Below, piece by piece: positions 17,948 to 29,633 of a stretch of DNA of 64,000 nucleotides. A program made the position numbers and the translations under genes. The notes beneath the pieces were generated by a model. The model worked only from the letters and a program-made list of their open reading frames with translations, did not search any database and had not been told where the DNA came from. The DNA comes from a virus. Lineage: Duplodnaviria; Caudoviricetes. How positions within the stretch are numbered: position 1 is the stretch's first letter; the number at the start of each line of letters is the position of its first letter. The stretch spans positions 32,001 through 96,000 of the IMG/VR virus record IMGVR_UViG_3300021256_002372, one strand, 5' to 3'.

Positions 17948-18889
17948 TCAATCGCCAGTGTACTTCTTTAAGAACGGCGTGAATGCCTCTCTGAGCGCAA
18001 CTACCAAGTCAATGGCTCTACTCATCAAATCTCTGTAATTGCTTTGATCGTTGAAGTTCAACTTTGGAATGCAGGTGCAAATTGTGCAGGCTTTTTTGTT
18101 TTCCAGTTTGTCCCAATCCAAAGACATACCTGCTGCAGTTTCAATTTCTGTTTTATGCTCAAAGAAATAGTCGAACATTTCCTTACTGTCATCAATCCAC
18201 AGTCCAACCCTAATCTTGTGGTCTTTATGCACTAAATCAATGGAGATATGGCACTTTGATGATCCAACAGCAACTGTGTACCAGTGATCGGTGGAGGGCT
18301 TATGCTTATTGAAAGGTTTTCCACGCTCATCAATAAGATCGTTCAGTCGCGTCCAAAAATCAAGACGATACTTCTGTGTTTCATTCAACTCGCCCTTTTC
18401 AGCGAGTGCTTTTGCGTTCTTGACAAAGTCATTCGGCTGTTCTATGATTTTGAACATCGGTGCCGGATCAGAATCACCGATTCTATAAGCATGGATTTCA
18501 ATCAAAAAGAAGGAGATATTGTCATCAGTATGGTTATTCAGCCATTCAATGGCACTTGCGTGCTCATCCCTCGCAGTCTCCACAATCCAAACAACAACGC
18601 TGGCATCCAGACCGGAAGCATAAGTGATGATCTTTCCGAGATGGTCGTGGTTCGTCTGTTCAAGCTGATTTTCAATCAGAACAGATTTGCCAGTAAGTTC
18701 ATCCTTGCAAATGATATCGCAGCGATAGCTGCCCACGAACTGTTCTGTGTTCACATCGGTCAGCGAAAGGTTGAGAACCTCTCCGAGTAACTTGATGTTT
18801 TCTTCTTCAGCAAGCCACTTTGAGAAGTCATATTGTTCATGCGCCCATACATCGCGGATATCAACTTCGTGTAATTTTCCGAGTTTCAT
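17948..18889 (-). CDS. DUF4268 protein with N-terminal PD-(D/E)xK-like domain
   Basis: VWAHEQYDFSKWL, RCDIICKD...VLIENQL..TNHDHLGK; C-terminal LDFWTRL...LDWDKL. Confidence 0.8.
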   Translation of the reverse strand: MKLGKLHEVDIRDVWAHEQYDFSKWLAEEENIKLLGEVLNLSLTDVNTEQFVGSYRCDIICKDELTGKSVLIENQLEQTNHDHLGKIITYASGLDASVVVWIVETARDEHASAIEWLNNHTDDNISFFLIEIHAYRIGDSDPAPMFKIIEQPNDFVKNAKALAEKGELNETQKYRLDFWTRLNDLIDERGKPFNKHKPSTDHWYTVAVGSSKCHISIDLVHKDHKIRVGLWIDDSKEMFDYFFEHKTEIETAAGMSLDWDKLENKKACTICTCIPKLNFNDQSNYRDLMSRAIDLVVALREAFTPFLKKYTGD

Positions 18890-18921
18890 CGAAATCCCTC
18901 CAGTCCCTATATACGATTCTA

Positions 18922-21570
18922 TTACATTGTTTTCAGCATTTCTGCAAAATCAGCAAGGGTATGTGCGTTTTTGATTGGTTTATCCATAAATACCATAAAA
19001 TAGCTGTATTTCGTTCCAGTTTCGGAGGCACTCGATGCCCACCGTTTACCTAATTCCAACTTCGTATCGCTATCATCATTACCAAGCTGTTCGCCCTTAA
19101 ACTCAACTACAAGAATCCGGCCAGACTTCATTTTCACTATGAAATCCGGATAATGGTTGATGAAGGCATTGATCTTAAAGCCTTTTTTTCCTATGATTCT
19201 GTGCCACCACTCGACACTGTCCGTGCTTGCGAACACATCACGCAGTTTGGCTTCATCATCGTTAAGGTCATCGCATTCTGACTCATACAGAGAAAGCGGT
19301 ATAGCGGAAGTCGCATCTGAGGGAGTAATGATGTCCGGAAACGCATATTCTTCCTGACAGCAGATTTTCCCGCTGTCAAGCCACTTATAAAACATTTTCT
19401 CTCTGTATGCATCCTGCAACTTTTCAATTTTATCCTTGATACGCAGAGCATAGGTCTGGAAAGAGGTCTCAATCACAGACAGCTCGTCCTCAGTCATATT
19501 GGCTACGACTCTGTGAACATAGGCTTCAATATCAGATGCGGCAAAGGCATTATTCTTATTGATGATATGGCAGATATTGCGTACACAGCTTGCAATTTTC
19601 TCCTCCGGAGCCATTCTTGCGAGCATTTCTCTGAGGTAGTCGCTTTGAAGCTGGGATGCACGCTTATACTTCGGAACTGCATCGCCCTGCTCTGCAACAT
19701 CGAATTCGTACATTTCTCCTGCTGACAGCGTGAAGTTCACCTCGGCATCCTGCCCACTGAGAGTAAATCCGTCAAGCAGTGCATCCTTTTCAAGTTTTAC
19801 TGTATCGCCAAAGAACAAGCTCTGTGCAGACTGGATAAAGAACTGCGGAATACGAAGAGCCTTGACCTGTTCCGTATACTGCGGTTGGATGTGATATTGT
19901 TTCATCATATTTCCTAATTCGCCCCCGATAAAACCGGAGGACTCGCTCTGTTCTGCTTCTTCCTCGTACTCTTCAGACTGCTTTTCAGCGTGAGAGATCA
20001 TAGCTTCGATCTCGGGAGAAGCAGATGTTGTGGCTGTAGGTGTGAATGTGAGTGAATGCTTATCTGCGTCGGTCGGAACAATATCCGAGAAATCATCAAT
20101 ATCGCTCTGCACAGGTTCATCTGTTGCAGGAGGTGCCAGAGGAATGGACGGCTGCTCAGCAGGAGTATCCTCGGGCTCATCAGCCGCAGGAAGTTCCTCT
20201 TCACCAATGCGGTAATCTTTGCTGCTGAAGCCTGCGCTGTTCAGTCCCTTAACAATATTGTTCAGGGTATCACGGAAATCATTAGAAGAAGTCAGAACGA
20301 AAGACATATTCAGTAGCTTAGACTCGTGCTTTCTTGCATACGGCTGACGAAGGATTCTACCGAGAATCTGCTCAACATCGACTTTGGAGGTTTTATTGGC
20401 GAGCGATGCAAGAATATATGCAAATGGACAGTCCCAACCTTCTTTCAGAGCATTGACGGTAATGATATATCGAATCGGGCAATCACGGTTCATAAGGTCG
20501 GTTTTGCCAAGATCATCAACCTTTGATGTTTTGATTGCAATCTGTTCTTCGGGAATATCATATTCCATCAGCATTTGCTTGACTTTTTCAAAGGTTTCGC
20601 TGTCGCTGTTTGTATTTGGCTGTGCCTGAAACAGAACGATAGGACGGATATATTGTCCTCCCGCTTGTTCTTCTGCAATTGCTTGCTGTTCGAGTGTGTT
20701 TCGGAGCTTGATAGCATCCATAATCACGCTCTTTCGGGATGTACGGTTATACACGATAACAGGGAGCTTGACCATGTTTTCCTTTTTCAGCTCTCTTGCA
20801 TTCACATAGGAAATGATGTTGCTGTTCTTGCGGGGTGTCGCTGTCAGGTCAAGCACAAAGGACGGATTCAGGTTTTTCAACATCTCCACGCTGAGATCGG
20901 AGCCTGCATTGTGGCTCTCGTCCACGACCACAACCGGCTGCAAATGGCGCAGAACCTGAATCAGTGCCGTATCCGGTGTATCTGCCAACAGAGCAGAATC
21001 ATCCTTGAAATACTCAGCAAAGCGCAGGAGATTTCCGTTTTCCTGATACACCTTGCGGACATCCTTCTTCTTGCTGTCAATACGGAGAGAGCCATAGCTG
21101 AGAATGCAAACTGTGAGCTGTTCCCGTACTGTATCGGGTGAGAAATTCTGTCCGGTCAGCAGCATTTCCTTTGTATAGACACCGACACGCCCTGCAAAAT
21201 CAGCATTCAGCCGCTGACGGTATGGGTGGTCGATGCTCATGAGATTCTTTGTAGTTTGGACAAGGATAGGATCAGACGGCACAAGCCACACAACCATTTT
21301 CAGTTTGCCCTGTGGAAGTTCATCAAAGATGCACTTGACAGCAGAGCAAGCCATGAAGGTCTTGCCGCCGCCGGTCGGCACTTTCATGCAGACGTGCGGA
21401 ACACCTGCTATCGCATTCTGGTATGCCGGAACGCCGCCGAGTCCGACAGCAATATCCTGCTCCCGCCAATAGTGCCGCCATGCCTTGTTGAGGTCGTTGT
21501 CATCGTTCAGGATAGAAATATAGGTAGAGAGGTCACGCATGACCGATTTCTGATAGTTTTTCAGTTCCAT
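18922..21570 (-). CDS. res: Type III restriction endonuclease, Res subunit
   Basis: VPTGGGKT, DESH, ALKEGWDCP, QILGRILR, C-terminal YPDF...VEFKG; follows mod. Confidence 0.9.
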   Translation of the reverse strand: MELKNYQKSVMRDLSTYISILNDDNDLNKAWRHYWREQDIAVGLGGVPAYQNAIAGVPHVCMKVPTGGGKTFMACSAVKCIFDELPQGKLKMVVWLVPSDPILVQTTKNLMSIDHPYRQRLNADFAGRVGVYTKEMLLTGQNFSPDTVREQLTVCILSYGSLRIDSKKKDVRKVYQENGNLLRFAEYFKDDSALLADTPDTALIQVLRHLQPVVVVDESHNAGSDLSVEMLKNLNPSFVLDLTATPRKNSNIISYVNARELKKENMVKLPVIVYNRTSRKSVIMDAIKLRNTLEQQAIAEEQAGGQYIRPIVLFQAQPNTNSDSETFEKVKQMLMEYDIPEEQIAIKTSKVDDLGKTDLMNRDCPIRYIITVNALKEGWDCPFAYILASLANKTSKVDVEQILGRILRQPYARKHESKLLNMSFVLTSSNDFRDTLNNIVKGLNSAGFSSKDYRIGEEELPAADEPEDTPAEQPSIPLAPPATDEPVQSDIDDFSDIVPTDADKHSLTFTPTATTSASPEIEAMISHAEKQSEEYEEEAEQSESSGFIGGELGNMMKQYHIQPQYTEQVKALRIPQFFIQSAQSLFFGDTVKLEKDALLDGFTLSGQDAEVNFTLSAGEMYEFDVAEQGDAVPKYKRASQLQSDYLREMLARMAPEEKIASCVRNICHIINKNNAFAASDIEAYVHRVVANMTEDELSVIETSFQTYALRIKDKIEKLQDAYREKMFYKWLDSGKICCQEEYAFPDIITPSDATSAIPLSLYESECDDLNDDEAKLRDVFASTDSVEWWHRIIGKKGFKINAFINHYPDFIVKMKSGRILVVEFKGEQLGNDDSDTKLELGKRWASSASETGTKYSYFMVFMDKPIKNAHTLADFAEMLKTM

Positions 21571-21581
21571 GCTGTACCTCC

Positions 21582-23156
21582 TTACAGTCTTGTGATGTCA
21601 CGCGGAATCTTTTTGAATGTGATGTGATAACGCTCCAGCTCTTCTTCGCTGAGAATGCAGCGGTCGGCATAGATCACATAGCTTTCCGCTTTGGTCTTGA
21701 CCGTTGACAGGAAAGCGTGATCGAGTGTTGTTGCGGCATTTTTGTCATAGAAGAAGTAGTATGCCGTGTCAAGATAGGAGCCAAGATAATGCGGCTCGTC
21801 CTCTTTATTGGTTACAGGCTGTTTTGTTTCTGTGAAATAGACATAGCTTCTGATTTTGTCAAGCGGTACATTTTCATTGAGGTATTCACCGTCAAGGAGC
21901 TTTTCACCAAGTTCATAGAAGGTGAAGCCGCCGCCTGTTCCTTCGACTGCCTTTTTGCCGTCACCGTAGCCGTCAATGACACGGCGCACACGTTCAGCGG
22001 TGATCGTTTCAGCATAGTCACACATCTCGATTAGAATAAACTTGCGGTTACCGCCGTCAGCTTTGTTCATGTTGAGGACAGCGTGTGCAGTTGTGCCGGA
22101 GCCTGCAAAAGAGTCGAGAATGACAGAATCCTTGTCGGTTGCAATCTGCATCACTCGTTCTATTAAACGAGTAGGCTTAGGTGTATCAAAAATGCTCTCA
22201 TTATCTGAAAGTATGGACATGATCTCTTTCTTAGCTTCATCTGTGTGTCCTACTTCATCACTAGGCCACCAAGTCCACGGAACAGCTCCTTCGACCTCGC
22301 TCAAATATCTGATAGTTTGGGGCTGAGAATCTCCATTCTTACCAAAATATATACGACCTGCTTCCAGTAGTTTTTTGAACTCAGGCTCTATGGTACTCCA
22401 ACAACGTCCCTTGGGAGGAGTTACTATTTTACCGCTAGGTGTTTCTATAGGATACATTTGATTTGGCCGAAATCCCTGTGCTGTCATCGGAACACCGCGC
22501 CAACGTCCTTTAGGATCGTTATTCGGATTTTTATAGATTTGCGCTTGTTTTTCGTCGAATCCTATTTTATGGCGTGTGTTTTTGAATACTTCGACATCAG
22601 AAGCATATACAAGTAGATATTCGTGCGCATCGCCAAAAGCGCCTCTGTTCTCACGAGAATATCTTTTTTGCCAAACTACAGTTGCTATATGATTGTTTCT
22701 TCCAAAAACTTCGTTGCAGATGATCTTTAGTTCTTCAATTTCATTTTCATCAATAGAAATAAAGATTACTCCTGTTTGTGGATCCAATAGTTTCTGTAAC
22801 AGTTTCAACCTTGGATACATCATGCACAGCCACTTATCATGCCGTGACAAATCTTCACTCTCTGAACCGACAACCTGACCAAGCCATTTTCGGATACGGG
22901 GATCATTGACATTATCGTTGTATACCCAGCCTTCGTTGCCGGTATTGTACGGCGGATCAATGTAGATGCACCGGATTTTTCCTTCGTATTCCGGCAGCAG
23001 ACTTTTCAGCGCCTCCAGATTATCTCCGTGGATAATCATGTTGCCTGTGTCATCACCATAGGTATACTGCGGATCTAACACACGGTAGGGTACGTCCATA
23101 TGATGATTGATAACCTTGTCTTTTCCGATCCAGTCAAGTGTCGGCATTATGGTCAC
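21582..23156 (-). CDS. mod: Type III R-M DNA methyltransferase, Mod subunit
   Basis: IHGDNLEALK, IYIDPPYNTG, TPKP, LDSFAGSGTTAHAV. Confidence 0.92.
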   Translation of the reverse strand: MTIMPTLDWIGKDKVINHHMDVPYRVLDPQYTYGDDTGNMIIHGDNLEALKSLLPEYEGKIRCIYIDPPYNTGNEGWVYNDNVNDPRIRKWLGQVVGSESEDLSRHDKWLCMMYPRLKLLQKLLDPQTGVIFISIDENEIEELKIICNEVFGRNNHIATVVWQKRYSRENRGAFGDAHEYLLVYASDVEVFKNTRHKIGFDEKQAQIYKNPNNDPKGRWRGVPMTAQGFRPNQMYPIETPSGKIVTPPKGRCWSTIEPEFKKLLEAGRIYFGKNGDSQPQTIRYLSEVEGAVPWTWWPSDEVGHTDEAKKEIMSILSDNESIFDTPKPTRLIERVMQIATDKDSVILDSFAGSGTTAHAVLNMNKADGGNRKFILIEMCDYAETITAERVRRVIDGYGDGKKAVEGTGGGFTFYELGEKLLDGEYLNENVPLDKIRSYVYFTETKQPVTNKEDEPHYLGSYLDTAYYFFYDKNAATTLDHAFLSTVKTKAESYVIYADRCILSEEELERYHITFKKIPRDITRL

Positions 23157-23296: not shown

Positions 23297-24463
23297 TCAC
23301 ATCAACCCATAAGACTCAGCAAACTTCGCAAGATCCTCCGGTGGAGTGTTCTTTATCATCTCTGCCATATACAGGCTGCCGAGCGTTTCTATATCATCAG
23401 GCGTAATCTTGTAACCGCACTCATTATGCACCATATCAAATACATGGTGAATAATCGACATAAACGGCATCTTCATCTTGTTCAGTTTCTTCTCCAAATC
23501 CTCCCATTGCTCTGCCTCGCCACCTTCGCGTGAGTTCATGATTGCAGATAGATAACGGTGCAGCAGAGATTTGGACAGAGGATTTCCAACCTTAACCTTC
23601 TTAGCGATAGAATGCAGCTCCTTTGAAATCTCATTCAAGTGCAGTGACGGCTGCTGATAGACGAGATCCTGAACAATTTCAGCAATAAATTCACGCCAGA
23701 TCGCATAACCGGCATTCATGCGGCCGTCATTATATTCTTCAGAGGGTGTTTCCGGTGTGCCTGCACAGTATAGGTCATAGAAGCGCTGACCAACTTTTCC
23801 TGCTGTCTCGATTTCGTGTGTGGTGCAAAAGATATGTGCCAGCTCATGAACGAGAATAATCTTGTAATAGTCTAAATCAGCCAGCTCTTGTGGCGGATCA
23901 ACACGAATCATCAGTCCGTCAACATGGGCAGGATCGTCGATATCAGTTTGACCTACGAATGCCTCAGCAAGAACAGACTCAAAGTCGCTCATGATGCGTT
24001 TTTCGGAGTGAAACCCGTATTTTTGAGTGAACTCATTATAAACTTCCACGATATTATCCAGCGTACAGAAAGCGACCTTGATATTGTCAAGGGAATAGTT
24101 TGTGTCGAGATAGTCGTTATACAGCTCACAGGCTTGCTGAAGAAAAGTCGTGAGCGTTTCCTCGATATCCGATGTTGCAGATTGTTTGCTGCTGATTTCA
24201 ATGTATTTATTCATGACTTTACCCTCTGGAAAGAATGCATAGGGGTCTAATTTAAGAACAGCGCAGATTGCAAGTGCTGTTCTGAGTGTCGCCGTTTCAA
24301 GGTTTCGTTCACCACTTTCGATACGCTGATACTGACGAAGCTGAAGTTTGGCGGCTTTTGCCACTTGCTGCTGTGATAGCCCCAGCTTTTCACGGCGGGT
24401 GCGCAGTATCTCCTGACTTGTGATTCTGTCATCATATACGAGTGGGAAACTGATAAAGTTCAT
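23297..24463 (-). CDS. XRE-family HTH protein fused to an HExxH zinc-peptidase-like domain
   Basis: RREKLGLSQQQVAK...YQRIESGER HTH; ILVHELAHIF; later W.EF.AE. Confidence 0.8.
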   Translation of the reverse strand: MNFISFPLVYDDRITSQEILRTRREKLGLSQQQVAKAAKLQLRQYQRIESGERNLETATLRTALAICAVLKLDPYAFFPEGKVMNKYIEISSKQSATSDIEETLTTFLQQACELYNDYLDTNYSLDNIKVAFCTLDNIVEVYNEFTQKYGFHSEKRIMSDFESVLAEAFVGQTDIDDPAHVDGLMIRVDPPQELADLDYYKIILVHELAHIFCTTHEIETAGKVGQRFYDLYCAGTPETPSEEYNDGRMNAGYAIWREFIAEIVQDLVYQQPSLHLNEISKELHSIAKKVKVGNPLSKSLLHRYLSAIMNSREGGEAEQWEDLEKKLNKMKMPFMSIIHHVFDMVHNECGYKITPDDIETLGSLYMAEMIKNTPPEDLAKFAESYGLM

Positions 24464-25094: not shown

Positions 25095-27492
25095 TTATCT
25101 TTTCCCTGTCATCATCTGGAAATGCTGCTCCTGATGCATAACTTTAAAAATTCGCTCAAAAACGTCTCGAAGACTATCTACGCTTACCGCAGAAGAATCA
25201 TAGTATAGACCATCATTAAAACCGATGGCGCCAACATTTAGCATGGCTATCATAGCCGATGCTGCAATATAGTCTGTTCGATCTTCTGTGCCGTCATCAA
25301 GCGTCTTCACAAACTCCTTTTCATTCATGTCCAGGAGTTCGTGTCGCAGATTGCCGCTTTTAAATCCTACCATTTGAATAAAGTAGTATTCGAGAATTTG
25401 TCGCATTATCATCATGAGTGTTTCCGAGTCATCAGTGTAACTATATTCGTGCCAGAGGGTATCATATGTATTACGAACTGGGGAACGATTAATCTTACTT
25501 CCGCCTGAGAATTTCAGTTCATCCGTACACTCTGCAATACTGGTCTGATTATCCTTGCTCTTTTTGATTTCAAAGAACGATGCGCATTCATAGTCACTAA
25601 TTCGGTTATAAGTGATTTCTCGGAAGAAGTAGGGGTTGTGTGTCATGCAGAAGAATTGGCGGATGTGATCGTCACTTCCAGTTTTAGTCATATCGTAGTT
25701 ATTATAGCAAACTGCGATCATCTCCCGAACCAGTGAGGCAACAATAAAGAGTGAACTGCTGTCCATTGAGGATACCGGATCATCAATGATTACTATCTTG
25801 TCTACGACCTTTCCTTCATCCGACTGACTGCCCATAACCATGTGGTAGAAGTACAGGAAGGCTATAAAGTTACGCTCGCCTTCGCTAAGATTCTGTTGCA
25901 CAACTTCTGGATTTCCGCTGTTATCCCTTACAAGTTCGTATACATATTTTGCGCCGGCTTTTTCTTGCAAGTAAAAGCCGCGGAATCCGGCATTTTTGAT
26001 TGCCTTGTTAATGTCGTGCATCGCTTTGGTGGTATTGACGGTCTGACTGTTAAGAAATGCAATATGACGCTCAATCTCATTTGCGTTATCTATGAGCTGC
26101 TTCGCCTCACCATTGGCTTTTCTCCATTCTTCGCGATCAGATTCTGTTTTTTTCTTCCAGTTTGATATTATGTCATCACATTCTTTCGCCAAAAGCCCCC
26201 AGACCATCTTTGTGCATTTTACAGTTTGACCGGGAATGTCAGCAAGAACCGCCATATACGCTTTGATCTCAGCATTAATTGCTTCAGTGAGGTCATTGAT
26301 ATATTTTGAAGTTGAAATAAGACTTTCTATAATGATTGATTCGGCAGGGTTATCCTTCTTTTTCTGAAGCAAAACAAAGTTTCTTTCTATTATTGACATC
26401 AGAAGTTGAGCGTGCTGCCTGTAGTCATCTAATTTGCGAGACGGAAAAGGCGCTTGAAGGTTCCTTTGAATCACTTGCTTTGTATCGTTCATTAAATTTG
26501 TGATTTCTTCAAAATAAAAATCCAAGTTGGAAAGATCCTTCTTGTACTGTTCGTCATAACATGTTGCAAGCATTTCCTCAAAATTTTCAGGAAGCATTCT
26601 TTGACAATAAGGGCATTTCCCGTCTGCTTTATCATGGAACTGTCTGTGTCCAGCAGCAACCCAGTCCATATTACCCAAAGCACGGATAAAAGCAGCAAAT
26701 TCTGTATCAGATCTGCTAACAATCGATTTTCGCATGATTTCGCTCATTGGCTCTATAACAGATGGAATGGGTTTGAACTCTGAATATGATTGCTGATTGG
26801 AATCAGAGATAGTAAGATAGAGGTTAAAGCATTCTTCTTCCGTTGTATCCAAAGGTTGTGTTTCCTCAAGTTTTTTTACGAACTTGCTCTTGTCTTTCAT
26901 AAATCCTGTTTGAGTTGTAGGAAACCTCTTTCTTATAGCTTCGGTTTTCTTCCAAACAGTCGTTATGTATTCTTGCTCGGCTTGTTCATGATTGCTTTTA
27001 TTACTTCGGCAATAATATAATTTGATCAGTTTGAACTAAAAATCAGGAAAGGACGCAACAGCGTTCTTTTGACGGATTTTCAAAAAGAAGAGCCAATTGT
27101 TTAATTGCCGAAGTAATAACCTGATCAGCAGTGGATTGTGCTTCTCTTGCACGTTTTACAAGCTCGGCTTTTATTGCAGCTTGATCGTCTGCCTCTTTCT
27201 TTTTTTGAGCATTGATATCAGAAATAGTGAACACACCCGGAATATTACCATAGCTTTGAATGTTCGCCTTAATAAAGTCTTCGTTATAAACAAGAATCTG
27301 TTCATCTGAAAGTGCCGCATCGCTCCATGTTAGTAATGCCGAATGATTCTTGAAAGATCTGCCGAGGGTAGATTTGCCAGTACCGTTTTTGCCATAGAAA
27401 AAGTTGAGCATGGTCGGTCGGAATGTTACATTGTGGTAAGTTGGGGCATTGATTGTGATGTCAGTAATGTAGCGTCTGATTTTGTCGCTCAT
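25095..27492 (-). pseudogene. AAA_13/RloC-like ABC ATPase with zinc hook, interrupted by a MITE
   Basis: Walker A GKNGTGKST in 27492-27043. CPYC hook, LSEGE, IIDDPVSSMD and THN in 26900-25095. Removing 118 bp restores one 759-aa frame (...ADQV|KSNHEQ...). Confidence 0.88.
27001..27116. mobile_element. 116-bp non-autonomous MITE-like insertion
   Basis: Perfect 13-bp terminal inverted repeats TTACTTCGGCAAT / ATTGCCGAAGTAA, imperfectly extendable; TA on both sides (26999-27000, 27117-27118). Confidence 0.85.
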
Positions 27493-27504: not shown

Positions 27505-28173
27505 TTATTTCACTTCAATTCCTTTGTCTTTGGTGATCTGTATGAGATCACCACGCCTTATACTCCAATGTTCCTCGTCAAGCTGATTCCTGACATGAGC
27601 TGAGATAAGATGAAAATCCTGTATATTGTTATTAATCATTTCCTGCTGGAAATATTTAGTTGTTTCAAACACTTCATAGTTAAAAATGATCTTTCCAGGT
27701 TGCGGCTGAATTTTCGTCAGCCTGCCAAGAAAAGACGGGCAATCTTGAAAGGCAGTCTGGAATCTTTCATTTTTCACTGTGAAGAGACATGGCATTTTCA
27801 GCAGTTCGTTAATGTGCCGGTCAGATAGCGGCGAATAGTATTCCTTAAGCTGTGAGTCAGTGTACTTCAAAGATAATTCTGCACTAATTGAAAAAGAAGA
27901 ACCAGAATAGTCTTCGTTATTTAGTACGAACAGATGGAAATGTGAGCGATCAAGTTTAATCCATTCTACGCTGTGCGACTTATGCTGGATTGGGGTTTGT
28001 TGTTGCATGGCTAATGAAATAGCCTGGACGAGCGTTTCAGGGCATCCTTCAATAACCAAATTTCCCTGCAAATTACCTACCGCAATACCATTGTCGGAAG
28101 CAGTAACAGTAGTAGGAACTTGAAACTGTGTCGGAAGCTGAGAGTCTTTGGACTTTACTATCTCATTTTTCAT
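27505..28173 (-). CDS. Hypothetical protein: N-terminal amyloid-like motif plus uncharacterised domain (paralog of 28181-28744)
   Basis: VTASDNGIAVGNLQGNLVI near the N-terminus; MPCLF...LDEEHWSIRRGDL; SD GAGG. Confidence 0.8.
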   Translation of the reverse strand: MKNEIVKSKDSQLPTQFQVPTTVTASDNGIAVGNLQGNLVIEGCPETLVQAISLAMQQQTPIQHKSHSVEWIKLDRSHFHLFVLNNEDYSGSSFSISAELSLKYTDSQLKEYYSPLSDRHINELLKMPCLFTVKNERFQTAFQDCPSFLGRLTKIQPQPGKIIFNYEVFETTKYFQQEMINNNIQDFHLISAHVRNQLDEEHWSIRRGDLIQITKDKGIEVK

Positions 28174-28180
28174 TTATACC

Positions 28181-28744
28181 TCACTTTCCGGGGAATACTC
28201 CCGCATCCTGCATTACTTCAAGTAAATCCACCTTTTTTATAGTCCAGTGTGTCCTTGTCAACTCAAACAAGTGCATAGCAAGATCGGACAAGTTATCCTT
28301 CAGAAAGGAAAACGGAATAGGGAAAAATCTCTGGAAATACACCTTGACACCGTTGTCTTGATCCCTGACATCCTTAATAAAAGCAAATACTGCTTGCTGT
28401 TCCTCAGTGCCATCACGTTCCATTGCGATGATTGCAGGCAGCTTTTTTATTTTTTCAACGATCTCATCTGACCAACCGCAGAACTCATTTTTTACCTCGT
28501 CCGTTATGTACTCGGTCAGAGCACGAGATTTATCCACGAGGATGTAGTTTTTTTCAAAAGGGTCATATCCTATTATCAGGTTGAAGTACCTTGGACGGGA
28601 TGCGGTCTTGATTCCGTCAGAAAGGAACAGATTAATTGTCGGAGAAAATGAATCAGTGTATCCAACTGCAATTCCGTCCCCTTCGGCATGAGCAGAGAAC
28701 GATGTCGGAATAGCGCCTTCTTTTTTTACGATGTCATTACTCAT
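28181..28744 (-). CDS. Hypothetical protein: N-terminal amyloid-like motif plus uncharacterised domain
   Basis: FSAHAEGDGIAVGY near the N-terminus; LPAII...ELTRTHWTIKKVDL; overlaps the upstream stop. Confidence 0.8.
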   Translation of the reverse strand: MSNDIVKKEGAIPTSFSAHAEGDGIAVGYTDSFSPTINLFLSDGIKTASRPRYFNLIIGYDPFEKNYILVDKSRALTEYITDEVKNEFCGWSDEIVEKIKKLPAIIAMERDGTEEQQAVFAFIKDVRDQDNGVKVYFQRFFPIPFSFLKDNLSDLAMHLFELTRTHWTIKKVDLLEVMQDAGVFPGK

Positions 28745-29633
28745 TCTTATTTCCCCGCCTTCCGATTACAAGTCCGCCGAACACCTGTCCGATAGCGATA
28801 CCATTATCCTTAGCCACAACATTAAACTGAGCTACGGATTGCTGCTGTGTAGCCGGTTCAGTAAACGGAGCTTCATAAACTTCCACTTTGGGCTGCTCTT
28901 CGTCGGTCACTTCTTCCGCTTCAACTACATCGTTCTCAGTTTTGTCCATTTCTTCCGTCTGGTCCTCCACCATGATTTCATTCTTCACTGTGAGCTTCTG
29001 CGATCTTTGAGTGCCGATATCTGCTGTGATTATTCGCGGACTGTTATCACCAGCTTCCTTAGTCCAGGCCTCATATGTATTAGCTCCTTCTTTAGTGTCG
29101 GGATGGCTGAGCAGAATATTATTCCAAACTGAAAGCAGAAAGTTTTGAAGTACGATTTCCATGACGGTATCAAGCTGTGCTTTGCTTACAATTTGACTGC
29201 CGATATCAAACTCACCGTCAATACTGTCATCTTCAAGTATGAGGTCAATCATTCCGGCTACAAGAAGTGCCATTGATGACTGGCTGAGATCAAGATACTT
29301 CTGACAGAACTTGTCCATTTCATACAGTACCGTTTCTTTCTCATTTATAAGCCGTAAATTCAATCCATTCTTATAAGCAGCATTATCAAACGGAAGATAG
29401 CTGGGGCTGTTAGGCGGACTGCCAGCCAAGTATTTTGAGAAGTACGACGCGAGTGTCTTAGGGTTGTTAGGTTGATATGCCGGATTAGCTAATTTCAGAA
29501 GATCTCGGAGCATATTTGGCTTGGTAACACCGTCTTTGCTGTCTCCGTACTCTTGCTGTGTGGTCAATGTCTGATTTCCAGAACGCAACAACAGTAGTAA
29601 AAACGTATTGCCTCTTAATCGATTCAAAGCCAA
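28737..29633 (-). CDS. Hypothetical protein: helical domain, acidic linker, C-terminal amyloid-like motif; divergent from the prophage early operon
   Basis: RLRGNTFLLLLL N-terminus; E/D-rich linker; FNVVAKDNGIAIGQVFGGLVIG at the C-terminus; TTG start behind AAAGGTG. Confidence 0.8.
   Translation of the reverse strand: MALNRLRGNTFLLLLLRSGNQTLTTQQEYGDSKDGVTKPNMLRDLLKLANPAYQPNNPKTLASYFSKYLAGSPPNSPSYLPFDNAAYKNGLNLRLINEKETVLYEMDKFCQKYLDLSQSSMALLVAGMIDLILEDDSIDGEFDIGSQIVSKAQLDTVMEIVLQNFLLSVWNNILLSHPDTKEGANTYEAWTKEAGDNSPRIITADIGTQRSQKLTVKNEIMVEDQTEEMDKTENDVVEAEEVTDEEQPKVEVYEAPFTEPATQQQSVAQFNVVAKDNGIAIGQVFGGLVIGRRGNKNE

What the first reader, a model, noticed from the sequence alone, without database searches (positions are those of the whole stretch)
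27505..29633. Three adjacent genes share a short amyloid/RHIM-like motif: candidate prion-like signalling system in prophage cargo
Seen: the 298-aa protein ENDS in FNVVAKDNGIAIGQVFGGLVIG (~28830-28762) after an acidic linker. The next two proteins BEGIN with FSAHAEGDGIAVGY (~28703-28658) and TTVTASDNGIAVGNLQGNLVIE (~28113-28051). The 298-aa protein shows no other similarity to the other two. Established: a short G/N-rich strand-turn-strand motif at the C-terminus of one protein and the N-terminus of its neighbour is the layout of amyloid signalling (RHIM, fungal HET-s/NWD2, bacterial BASS motifs linking Bell proteins to NLRs). Inference: this is a non-NLR version with one partner coupled by co-polymerisation to two paralogous proteins, possibly for anti-phage defence or prophage control. 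It is transcribed divergently from the early operon and is followed directly by an RloC-like ATPase.
Basis: partly seen in the sequence, partly recalled or inferred. Interest (0 to 1): 0.92.

Follow-up and report, generated by a model that had tools for sequence, protein, structure and literature searches.

The report
Matched end-tags wire prophage defence proteins
Three neighbouring prophage genes carry the same short sticky peptide at their touching ends; the tag changes in step between relatives, as in the amyloid "plug and socket" of known cell-death and anti-phage switches, but the protein parts here are new.

Summary
The core [D/G][N/D]G[I/V]A[I/V]G occurs three times in the six-frame translation of the 125-kb contig. 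All three lie at the C-end of the 298-aa protein (P1) and the N-ends of the next two proteins (P2, P3).

- **The tag is a matched coupling device.** P1 relatives carry at least 13-21 unrelated tail types. In every locus examined, the next gene(s) start with that locus's own type (permutation p<=5e-5). The match holds at protein level, not DNA level.
- **Composition fits published BASS motifs.** The tags are rich in N, Q, G, V and I, and poor in L, K and P.
- **P1's domain sits in the effector position.** It is a confident helical domain with no match found in the PDB. Elsewhere it is the N-terminal domain of NACHT NLR-like proteins, or is fused directly to the P2/P3 domain.
- **P2 and P3 look like sensors.** Their fold is PUA-like (EVE/YTH/ASCH), and elsewhere this domain is fused to TIR domains.
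- **An AAA_13 ATPase follows in about 26 of 30 loci.** Here a 116-bp MITE-like insertion breaks it.

Amyloid templating is the best reading but is untested, and RHIM membership is not met. The scan found this family before on other DNA (e1-4026305, e1-5797381). I class it as a new variant of amyloid-type signalling.

The parts
28737..29633 (-). P1, 298 aa: helical N domain, acidic linker and C-terminal tag. The start may be the TTG two codons downstream.
28968..29633 (-). P1N domain (residues 1-222): all-helical, pLDDT >90, no PDB match found. Elsewhere it is the N-terminal domain of NACHT+SNaCT14 proteins.
28764..28829 (-). P1 C-terminal tag (residues 269-290), after the acidic low-confidence linker (about residues 223-250)
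28181..28744 (-). P2, 187 aa: N-terminal half-tag plus a P2/P3-family domain
28658..28699 (-). P2 N-terminal tag (residues 16-29). Only the first half co-varies with P1; the second half is P2-specific.
27505..28173 (-). P3, 222 aa: N-terminal tag plus a PUA-like domain
28051..28110 (-). P3 N-terminal tag (residues 22-41), inside a segment with pLDDT <50 (residues 1-44)
27508..27981 (-). P3 globular domain (residues 65-222), PUA-like (EVE/YTH/ASCH-like) fold
27043..27492 (-). N-terminal fragment (P-loop) of the AAA_13 / PDC-S06 ATPase
27001..27116 (.). 116-bp MITE-like insertion with terminal inverted repeats and a 2-bp duplication. It splits the ATPase gene. An empty-site allele exists in another metagenome.
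25095..26900 (-). C-terminal 601-aa fragment of the same ATPase. The open frame continues upstream into the insertion.

Best explanation
This is a prophage-borne, multi-protein immune-type module wired by locus-specific homotypic peptide tags.

**Components**
- P1 carries a helical domain that elsewhere sits where NLR effector domains sit. It ends in a 20-25-residue tag rich in N, Q, G, V and I.
- P2 and P3 are PUA-like, putative nucleic-acid or modified-base readers. They begin with the same tag.
- An AAA_13 (PDC-S06) ATPase is a usual third component. In this genome an insertion has disrupted it.

**Proposed mechanism**
The tags recognise each other like-with-like, most probably by stacking into a shared cross-beta (amyloid-like) assembly as in BASS, HET-s or Bab/Agp signalling. 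Partner proteins clustered by their ligand would then nucleate the fold and recruit or convert P1, switching on its N domain.

**Shown here:** the tags, their positions, their within-locus co-variation, their composition, the domain fusions, and the gene linkage.

**Inferred:** the cross-beta nature of the contact, the direction of signalling (partner to P1), the ligand, the anti-phage role, and what P1N does.
For: - **Co-variation.** Across 13 non-redundant tail types, the best 14-aa score is 46.0 within a locus and 22.1 (sd 8.1) between loci. The own partner ranks first in 11 of 13 and second in 2 of 13 (same type in another locus). Permutation p<=5e-5. Three more tail types also match their partners.
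- **Close relatives show the same thing.** P1 domains 50-57% identical to the window's carry unrelated tails, and their partners follow.
- **Selection acts on the peptide.** Only 47% of identical residues use the same codon, and nucleotide identity is 56%.
- **One P1 serves several partners.** A single P1 serves 1-3 partners of different families.
- **Fusions.** P1N is joined directly to the PUA-like domain in many proteins. In some, one tag copy is kept in the linker.
- **NLR link.** P1N is the N-terminal domain of NACHT+SNaCT14 proteins. These sit at the same divergent position beside a DUF2800/PolA operon.
- **PUA-like domain fused to TIR.** It is fused to TIR_2/SEFIR or CAP12 TIR domains.
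- **Tags are outside the folds.** P3 residues 1-44 have pLDDT <50. The P1 tail has pLDDT 42-59 and three predicted strands.
- **Composition.** N is enriched 2.9x, Q 2.1x, G 1.9x, V 1.7x and I 1.6x; L, K and P are depleted. This is the published BASS bias.
- **Precedent.** A non-NLR amyloid-signalling anti-phage pair exists: Bab/Agp, bioRxiv 10.1101/2024.11.07.622273.
- **ATPase linkage.** AAA_13 follows in about 26 of 30 loci with enough sequence.
Against: - No fibril, templating or phenotype data exist for any member.
- No known amyloid-motif model matches. The best is a sub-threshold Ses_B hit on one distant tail (E 0.13).
- The partners are small and have no oligomerising NTPase domain of their own, so how they would nucleate a fold is unexplained.
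- The ATPase carries no tag, and its link to the rest is by gene order only.
- P1N has no recognisable killing activity. Almost only hydrophobic residues are conserved.
- Two-gene and ATPase-less forms exist, so the module's limits are uncertain.
- In this genome the ATPase gene is broken.
Confidence: 0.55

Rival explanations
1. The tags are non-amyloid docking peptides, a beta-zipper or strand exchange. They hold P1 and its partners in a stable, stoichiometric complex at all times and replace the covalent link of the fused forms. Nothing is templated.
For: Co-variation, fusions and one-to-many pairing fit this reading as well as amyloid signalling. The partners lack an oligomerising module. 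No known amyloid-motif profile matches.
Against: The N/Q/G/V/I-rich, L/K/P-poor composition is that of beta-solenoid and amyloid signalling motifs. The two tags are near-copies of each other rather than complementary surfaces. Some fused proteins still keep one tag copy in the linker, where a mere linker substitute would be redundant. The tags are not modelled as part of any fold.
Confidence: 0.3
2. The operon controls the prophage's own life cycle (lysogeny, induction or superinfection exclusion through regulation) rather than acting as an immune effector system. P1, which sits at the divergent 'repressor' position, would be a regulator.
For: P1 is always transcribed divergently from the early or replication operon. 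Many loci carry an HTH_17 gene inside the operon. Small contigs from metatranscriptome libraries of the source samples lie on the operon (weak evidence).
Against: P1N has no DNA-binding family hit. It occurs as the N-terminal domain of NACHT NLR-like proteins. The partner domain is fused to TIR domains. The ATPase is a PADLOC defence-candidate family, E 9e-172 for the intact allele. A separate HTH_3 protein lies downstream on the same strand.
Confidence: 0.1
3. The shared peptide is a signal read by a third party (protease, chaperone, secretion or packaging machinery), or a by-product of recent local duplication or gene conversion.
For: Short terminal peptides often serve as sorting or degradation signals.
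Against: A signal read by common machinery should be conserved between loci. Instead it is replaced by unrelated types while staying matched within each locus. Codon usage at identical residues differs in 53% of cases, which argues against recent DNA copying.
Confidence: 0.03

Closest known systems
Bab/Agp (BASS11) abortive-infection pair of E. coli ECOR25 (Ibarlosa et al., bioRxiv 10.1101/2024.11.07.622273)
   Same: Adjacent prophage genes. A short glycine-punctuated beta motif sits at the C-end of a helical protein and at the N-end of a non-NLR partner. The role is anti-phage.
   Different: [quoted passage not shown] Here the C-tagged protein has a 220-aa domain with no PDB match found. The partners are PUA-like. 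One P1 serves two or three partners, and an AAA_13 ATPase is linked. The hosts are Bacillota. I could not compare the tag sequence with BASS11 because no sequence was at hand.
Bell-domain / NLR gene pairs with BASS1-10 (Dyrka et al., bioRxiv 10.1101/2020.01.06.895854)
   Same: C-end/N-end layout, motif length of about 25 aa, Q/N/G/V/I enrichment with K/P/L depletion, many motif families on one effector domain, and all-in-one fusions of the effector domain to an NLR.
   Different: Those pairs are in Actinobacteria, Cyanobacteria and Archaea, and were reported as rare or absent in Firmicutes. Their partner is an NB-ARC or NACHT NLR and their effector is a Bell domain. None of these holds in this locus.
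Fungal HET-S/NWD2 and RHIM (RIPK1/RIPK3), PP and BASS3 motifs
   Same: Homotypic short-motif coupling of a sensor to an executioner. The type A core G-I-A-I-G has the spacing of the G-phi-Q-phi-G core.
   Different: The central Q is replaced by A. No Pfam RHIM, Ses_B or HET-s match. Other tail types in the family bear no resemblance to RHIM.
Effector-associated domain (EAD), Death-like adaptor pairs of bacterial conflict systems (Kaur et al. 2021, PMC8195603)
   Same: The same small module on two proteins of one locus couples a sensor or NTPase to an effector by homotypic contact.
   Different: Those are folded helical domains of about 80-100 aa. Here the shared element is a 20-25-residue strand-turn-strand peptide in disordered termini.
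PDC-S06 / AAA_13 ATPases, RloC and PrrC
   Same: The intact allele of the ATPase matches PDC-S06 end to end (E 9e-172) and AAA_13 (E 1e-100). It has a CxxC hook in the coiled-coil insert.
   Different: The PrrC model matches only the ATPase core (profile positions 139-247 of 372), not the nuclease part. PDC-S06 is listed as a single-gene candidate, whereas here it is linked to tagged partner genes.

Membership tests
Amyloid signalling motif gene pairs (BASS/FASS layout) | Short motif at the C-end of one protein and the N-end of the product of an adjacent gene | tested here: met
   P1 residues 269-290 of 298, P3 residues 22-41, P2 residues 16-29. The same holds in about 40 related loci.
Amyloid signalling motif gene pairs (BASS/FASS layout) | The two motifs of a pair are more alike than motifs of different pairs | tested here: met
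   score 46.0 within a locus vs 22.1 between loci, p<=5e-5; the match is conserved at peptide level, not DNA level.
Amyloid signalling motif gene pairs (BASS/FASS layout) | Composition enriched in Q, N, G, V, I and depleted in K, P, L | tested here: met
   840 motif residues vs 6843 residues from the rest of the proteins
Amyloid signalling motif gene pairs (BASS/FASS layout) | The tagged effector domain also occurs fused directly to the N-terminus of an NLR (all-in-one form) | tested here: met
   P1N + NACHT + SNaCT14. 18 of the best 150 representatives are forms of this kind, 740-890 aa long.
Amyloid signalling motif gene pairs (BASS/FASS layout) | The N-tagged partner is an NLR (NB-ARC or NACHT plus repeats) | tested here: not met
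   the partners are 187- and 222-aa PUA-like proteins with no NTPase domain. Bab/Agp shows this feature is not obligatory.
Amyloid signalling motif gene pairs (BASS/FASS layout) | The motif forms cross-beta fibrils and one side seeds the other | not testable with these tools
   Needs peptides, ThT or EM, and seeding assays.
RHIM / PP / BASS3 | Central G-phi-Q-phi-G ((I/V)Q(I/V)G) core and a profile match | tested here: not met
   The core here is G-I-A-I-G. No Pfam hit at E<=0.1 on whole proteins or at E<=10 on the window tail.
Bell / HeLo / Bab cell-death domains (for P1N) | Small helical bundle related to Bell/HeLo with an N-terminal membrane-inserting helix | tested here: inconclusive
   P1N is helical and starts with a conserved hydrophobic helix (residues 8-17). 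Nothing in the PDB matches it: Foldseek E>=0.28, VIA best Z 2.7, no sequence hit.
PUA-like superfamily, EVE/YTH/ASCH (for P2/P3) | PUA-like beta-barrel fold | tested here: inconclusive
   All 18 top VIA matches (Z 5.0-6.7, 106-132 residues aligned, rmsd 3.3-5.4) are EVE, YTH, ASCH or McrB-N domains. The Foldseek top hits are the same families at E 6e-3 to 0.1. Z is below 8 and there is no sequence-profile match.
AAA_13 / PDC-S06 | Full-length profile match | tested here: met
   for the two fragments. for the intact allele in L038.
RloC / PrrC anticodon nucleases | C-terminal anticodon-nuclease domain with its catalytic residues | tested here: inconclusive
   The PrrC model aligns only to the ATPase core. 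The catalytic residues were not examined.

The most novel reading that the evidence does not exclude
A very large, undescribed family of phage-borne immune modules exists in gut Bacillota (about 1,200 clusters at 50% identity for P1N alone). In it, a new-fold executioner domain is switched on by prion-like templating from small PUA-like nucleic-acid or modified-base sensors. Dozens of mutually orthogonal amyloid 'address codes' keep co-resident systems from cross-talking. If so, amyloid signalling would be a general, modular wiring principle of prokaryotic immunity far beyond NLRs and multicellular bacteria.
Probability: 0.4. Interest if true: 0.9.

Novelty: new variant of a known kind. Interest (0 to 1): 0.78.

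Why it matters
Amyloid signalling in bacteria was first tied to NLRs of filamentous, multicellular lineages. One E. coli non-NLR pair has since been shown to defend against phage. This family would extend the principle in several ways:
- to prophages of anaerobic gut Firmicutes;
- to a new effector-position domain with no PDB match found;
- to PUA-like reader domains as the upstream partners;
- to one-to-many wiring, with one P1 serving several partners.

The many orthogonal tag types on one conserved scaffold form a natural swap experiment for asking what sets the specificity of such tags. They may also serve as a toolbox of short self-recognising peptides. The work also gives a first functional context to P1N and to the P2/P3 domain, two sizeable families that have no name in Pfam, PHROGs, NCBIfam or PADLOC. 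P1N alone has about 1,200 representative clusters.

Tried and rejected
- **Complex prediction.** P3 full length plus P1 residues 240-298, with alignments: score 0.02 against a mark of 0.32. No verdict, and not used either way.
- **Family libraries.** Pfam, PADLOC, PHROGs and NCBIfam on P1, P2 and P3 gave no family.
- **Amyloid-motif profiles.** Pfam at E<=10 on ten tag-bearing tails gave only a sub-threshold Ses_B hit on one distant tail.
- **Fold of P1N.** Foldseek PDB, VIA wide and ESM-Atlas shape search gave nothing. This does not prove the fold is new.
- **Language-model look-alikes.** Only unnamed clusters were returned.
- **Profile search of PDB sequences.** A4 gave only noise (Ras), and A5 gave nothing.
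- **Promoter and terminator scan of the operon.** Not above shuffles.
- **RNA evidence.** Only 165-305-nt contigs from two metatranscriptome libraries of the probable source samples lie on the operon. One spans the P3/ATPase junction. DNA carry-over cannot be excluded, so this does not show transcription.
- **Literature.** Searches for this domain combination found no description.
- **BASS11.** No direct comparison was possible, because the motif sequence is only in figures.
Full report
**What is there**

On the minus strand lie four tightly packed genes.
- P1, 28737-29633, 298 aa.
- P2, 28181-28744, 187 aa. Its ATG overlaps P1's stop.
- P3, 27505-28173, 222 aa.
- An AAA_13 ATPase that starts 12 nt after P3's stop.

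P1 and P3 share 12 of 19 residues there and nothing else. P2 shares the first half only. P2 and P3 are distant paralogs and fall into one family in alignment A4.

The 7-residue core [D/G][N/D]G[I/V]A[I/V]G occurs exactly three times in the six-frame translation of the whole 125.5-kb contig. All three are in these genes, and there are none in 50 shuffles.

**The tag co-varies within loci**

P3 has few close relatives (8), and its N-terminal tag is conserved in them. P1 has many. A word-indexed search gave 82. An exhaustive profile search gave 1,191 representative clusters at E<=1e-3.

The same P1 N domain carries unrelated C-terminal tails. There are at least five types among close relatives. 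There are about 21 clusters among 89 short representatives.

I fetched about 50 loci. In each of the roughly 40 that had a complete P1 and enough downstream sequence, the gene or genes after P1 begin with that locus's own tail type.

Quantified on 13 non-redundant tails:
- The best 14-residue BLOSUM62 score is 46.0 within a locus and 22.1 (sd 8.1) between loci.
- The own partner ranks first in 11 tails. It ranks second in 2, where another locus has the same type.
- Permutation p<=5e-5.

Two near-identical types even show single-residue co-changes (L029 vs L032).

The match is kept at peptide level. Only 47% of identical residues use the same codon, and nucleotide identity is 56%. This rules out recent duplication or gene conversion. 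It also rules out a signal read by common host machinery, which would be conserved across loci. The tags therefore recognise each other.

**The tags look like amyloid signalling motifs but match no known family**

- The tag cores are enriched in N (2.9x), Q (2.1x), G (1.9x), V (1.7x) and I (1.6x). They are depleted in L, R, S, P, D, F and K.
- This is the bias published for BASS motifs: enriched Q, N, G, V, I and depleted K, P, L. I did not use it to find the tags.
- The tags are about 20-25 residues long and lie at the extreme termini.
- In AF2 models they lie outside the globular folds. P3 residues 1-44 have pLDDT <50. The P1 tail follows an acidic linker and is modelled as three short strands at pLDDT 42-59.
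- The type A core G-I-A-I-G has the spacing of the RHIM/PP/BASS3 core G-phi-Q-phi-G but lacks the Q.
- No Pfam RHIM, Ses_B or HET-s model matches the proteins or ten different tails. The best is a sub-threshold Ses_B hit on one distant tail.

RHIM membership is not met. The resemblance to amyloid signalling motifs lies in layout, composition and evolutionary behaviour.

**The domains**

P1N (residues 1-222):
- It is a confidently modelled all-helical domain (pLDDT mostly >90).
- It has no match in the PDB by Foldseek (best E 0.28), by VIA-align (best Z 2.7) or by sequence profile. The ESM Atlas gave none either (TM <=0.27).
- Its conserved positions are almost all hydrophobic, so an enzyme is unlikely.
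- It also occurs as the N-terminal domain of NACHT + SNaCT14 proteins. These make up 18 of the best 150 representatives.
- One such NLR gene (L037) sits at the same place as the window's operon, divergent from a DUF2800/PolA early operon.
- P1N is also fused directly to the P2/P3 domain in many 400-570-aa proteins. Some of these keep one tag copy in the linker.
- It is fused to other unknown domains as well.

P2/P3 domain:
- The P3 model is confident from residue 65.
- Its 18 best structural matches are all PUA-like readers of modified nucleic acids. They include EVE (PH1033, THYN1), YTH, ASCH, archaeal McrB N-domains and VcaM4I. Z is 5.0-6.7 over 106-132 residues. Foldseek agrees, weakly.
- I treat this as a probable fold assignment, not proven.
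- The same domain is fused, in either order, to TIR_2/SEFIR or CAP12-type TIR domains.

Taken together, P1N sits where effectors sit, and the PUA-like domain sits where sensors sit.

**The ATPase**

An AAA_13 gene follows the tagged genes in about 26 of 30 loci with enough sequence. These include loci whose P1N is only 25-30% identical to the window's. An HTH_17 gene often lies between.

The intact allele in an Oscillospiraceae MAG (L038, 93-95% nucleotide identity) matches PADLOC's PDC-S06 end to end (E 9e-172) and AAA_13. The PrrC model matches only the ATPase core, so 'RloC-like' is not established for the nuclease part.

In the window the gene is split by a 116-bp insertion at 27001-27116. 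The insertion has terminal inverted repeats and a 2-bp duplication. A bovine-gut metagenome contig carries the empty site, and other contigs carry the element in other contexts.

ATPase-less forms exist:
- a two-gene P1 + PUA-like module (L052/L053);
- a Synergistaceae locus in which P1 is followed by three differently built tagged proteins.

The core of the system is therefore P1 plus at least one tagged partner.

**Context**

The operon lies in a mobile element or prophage with DUF2800/PD-(D/E)XK, family A polymerase, D5-type primase, integrase, NrdD and methylases on one side. A type III restriction-modification pair lies on the other side. Relatives come from IMG/VR viral contigs and from gut or rumen metagenomes and MAGs of Oscillospiraceae, Lachnospiraceae and Synergistaceae.

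**Most likely mechanism (about 0.55 overall)**

| Step | Status | My estimate |
|---|---|---|
| The tags are homotypic coupling devices between P1 and its partners | Shown by co-variation and fusions | about 0.85 |
| The contact is cross-beta and the signal passes by templating from clustered partners to P1, as in Bab/Agp, Bell/NLR and HET-S/NWD2 | Inferred from layout, composition, near-identity of the two tags, and tag retention in some fusions | about 0.5-0.6 |
| The PUA-like proteins sense a nucleic-acid feature of an invading phage, and P1N executes | Inferred from domain positions (TIR and NACHT fusions) | not estimated |
| The role is anti-phage | Inferred from these associations and from PDC-S06 | about 0.7 |

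The main rival is constitutive, non-amyloid docking (about 0.3). Prophage self-regulation (about 0.1) and a third-party signal or DNA copying (about 0.03) are less likely.

**Comparison and novelty**

The closest known system is Bab/Agp (BASS11), a non-NLR amyloid-signalling anti-phage pair in an E. coli prophage. Next come the Bell/NLR BASS pairs.

New here:
- the effector-position domain;
- the PUA-like partners;
- the one-to-many wiring;
- the ATPase linkage;
- the host group, since BASS and NLR pairs were reported as rare or absent in Firmicutes;
- the large number of tag types on one scaffold.

I found no paper describing this. The scan itself met the same family before on other DNA (e1-4026305, e1-5797381). 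Their readings agree with mine, and I reached co-variation and fusions independently here. I class it as a new variant of a known kind.

Noticed in passing
window 27001-27116: A 116-bp MITE-like element (30-nt imperfect terminal inverted repeats, 2-bp duplication) splits the AAA_13 gene. An empty-site allele is present in a bovine-gut metagenome. The element also sits in other contexts in RNA and DNA contigs.
   Followed up: yes
window 17948-23156 (minus strand): A type III restriction-modification pair (ResIII helicase/endonuclease, 882 aa, and N6_N4 methylase, 524 aa) plus a DUF4268 protein lie just downstream. A 388-aa HTH_3 protein (23297-24463) lies between them and the ATPase. Together with the operon this looks like a defence-gene cluster inside the element.
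   Followed up: partly
L041 7809-9314: In a 91%-identical metagenome copy, the P3 gene appears truncated (101 aa). About 1.2 kb of extra DNA lies before the ATPase, possibly another insertion.
   Followed up: no
L019 9789-12134: In one viral contig the AAA_13 gene is split into three ORFs (272, 104 and 443 aa). This may be another decayed copy or a sequencing artefact.
   Followed up: no
P0218, P0080, P0317, P0215: Fusion proteins (P1N + PUA-like, and one P1N + NACHT) still contain a single tag-like stretch in the inter-domain linker. This hints that the tag does more than join two chains.
   Followed up: partly
P0091: A 255-aa protein with an unrelated N domain carries the same type A tail, including its upstream conserved stretch. 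The tail behaves as a mobile module.
   Followed up: no
L005 7643-10736; L045 2156-3496: Three further tagged partner proteins of unknown family (153, 578 and 446 aa) have no Pfam hit. They are candidate alternative sensors or effectors plugged into the same P1.
   Followed up: partly
P0180: A 373-aa protein joins a P2-like N part to the C-terminal third of the AAA_13 protein. It is probably a deletion or assembly chimera rather than a natural fusion.
   Followed up: no
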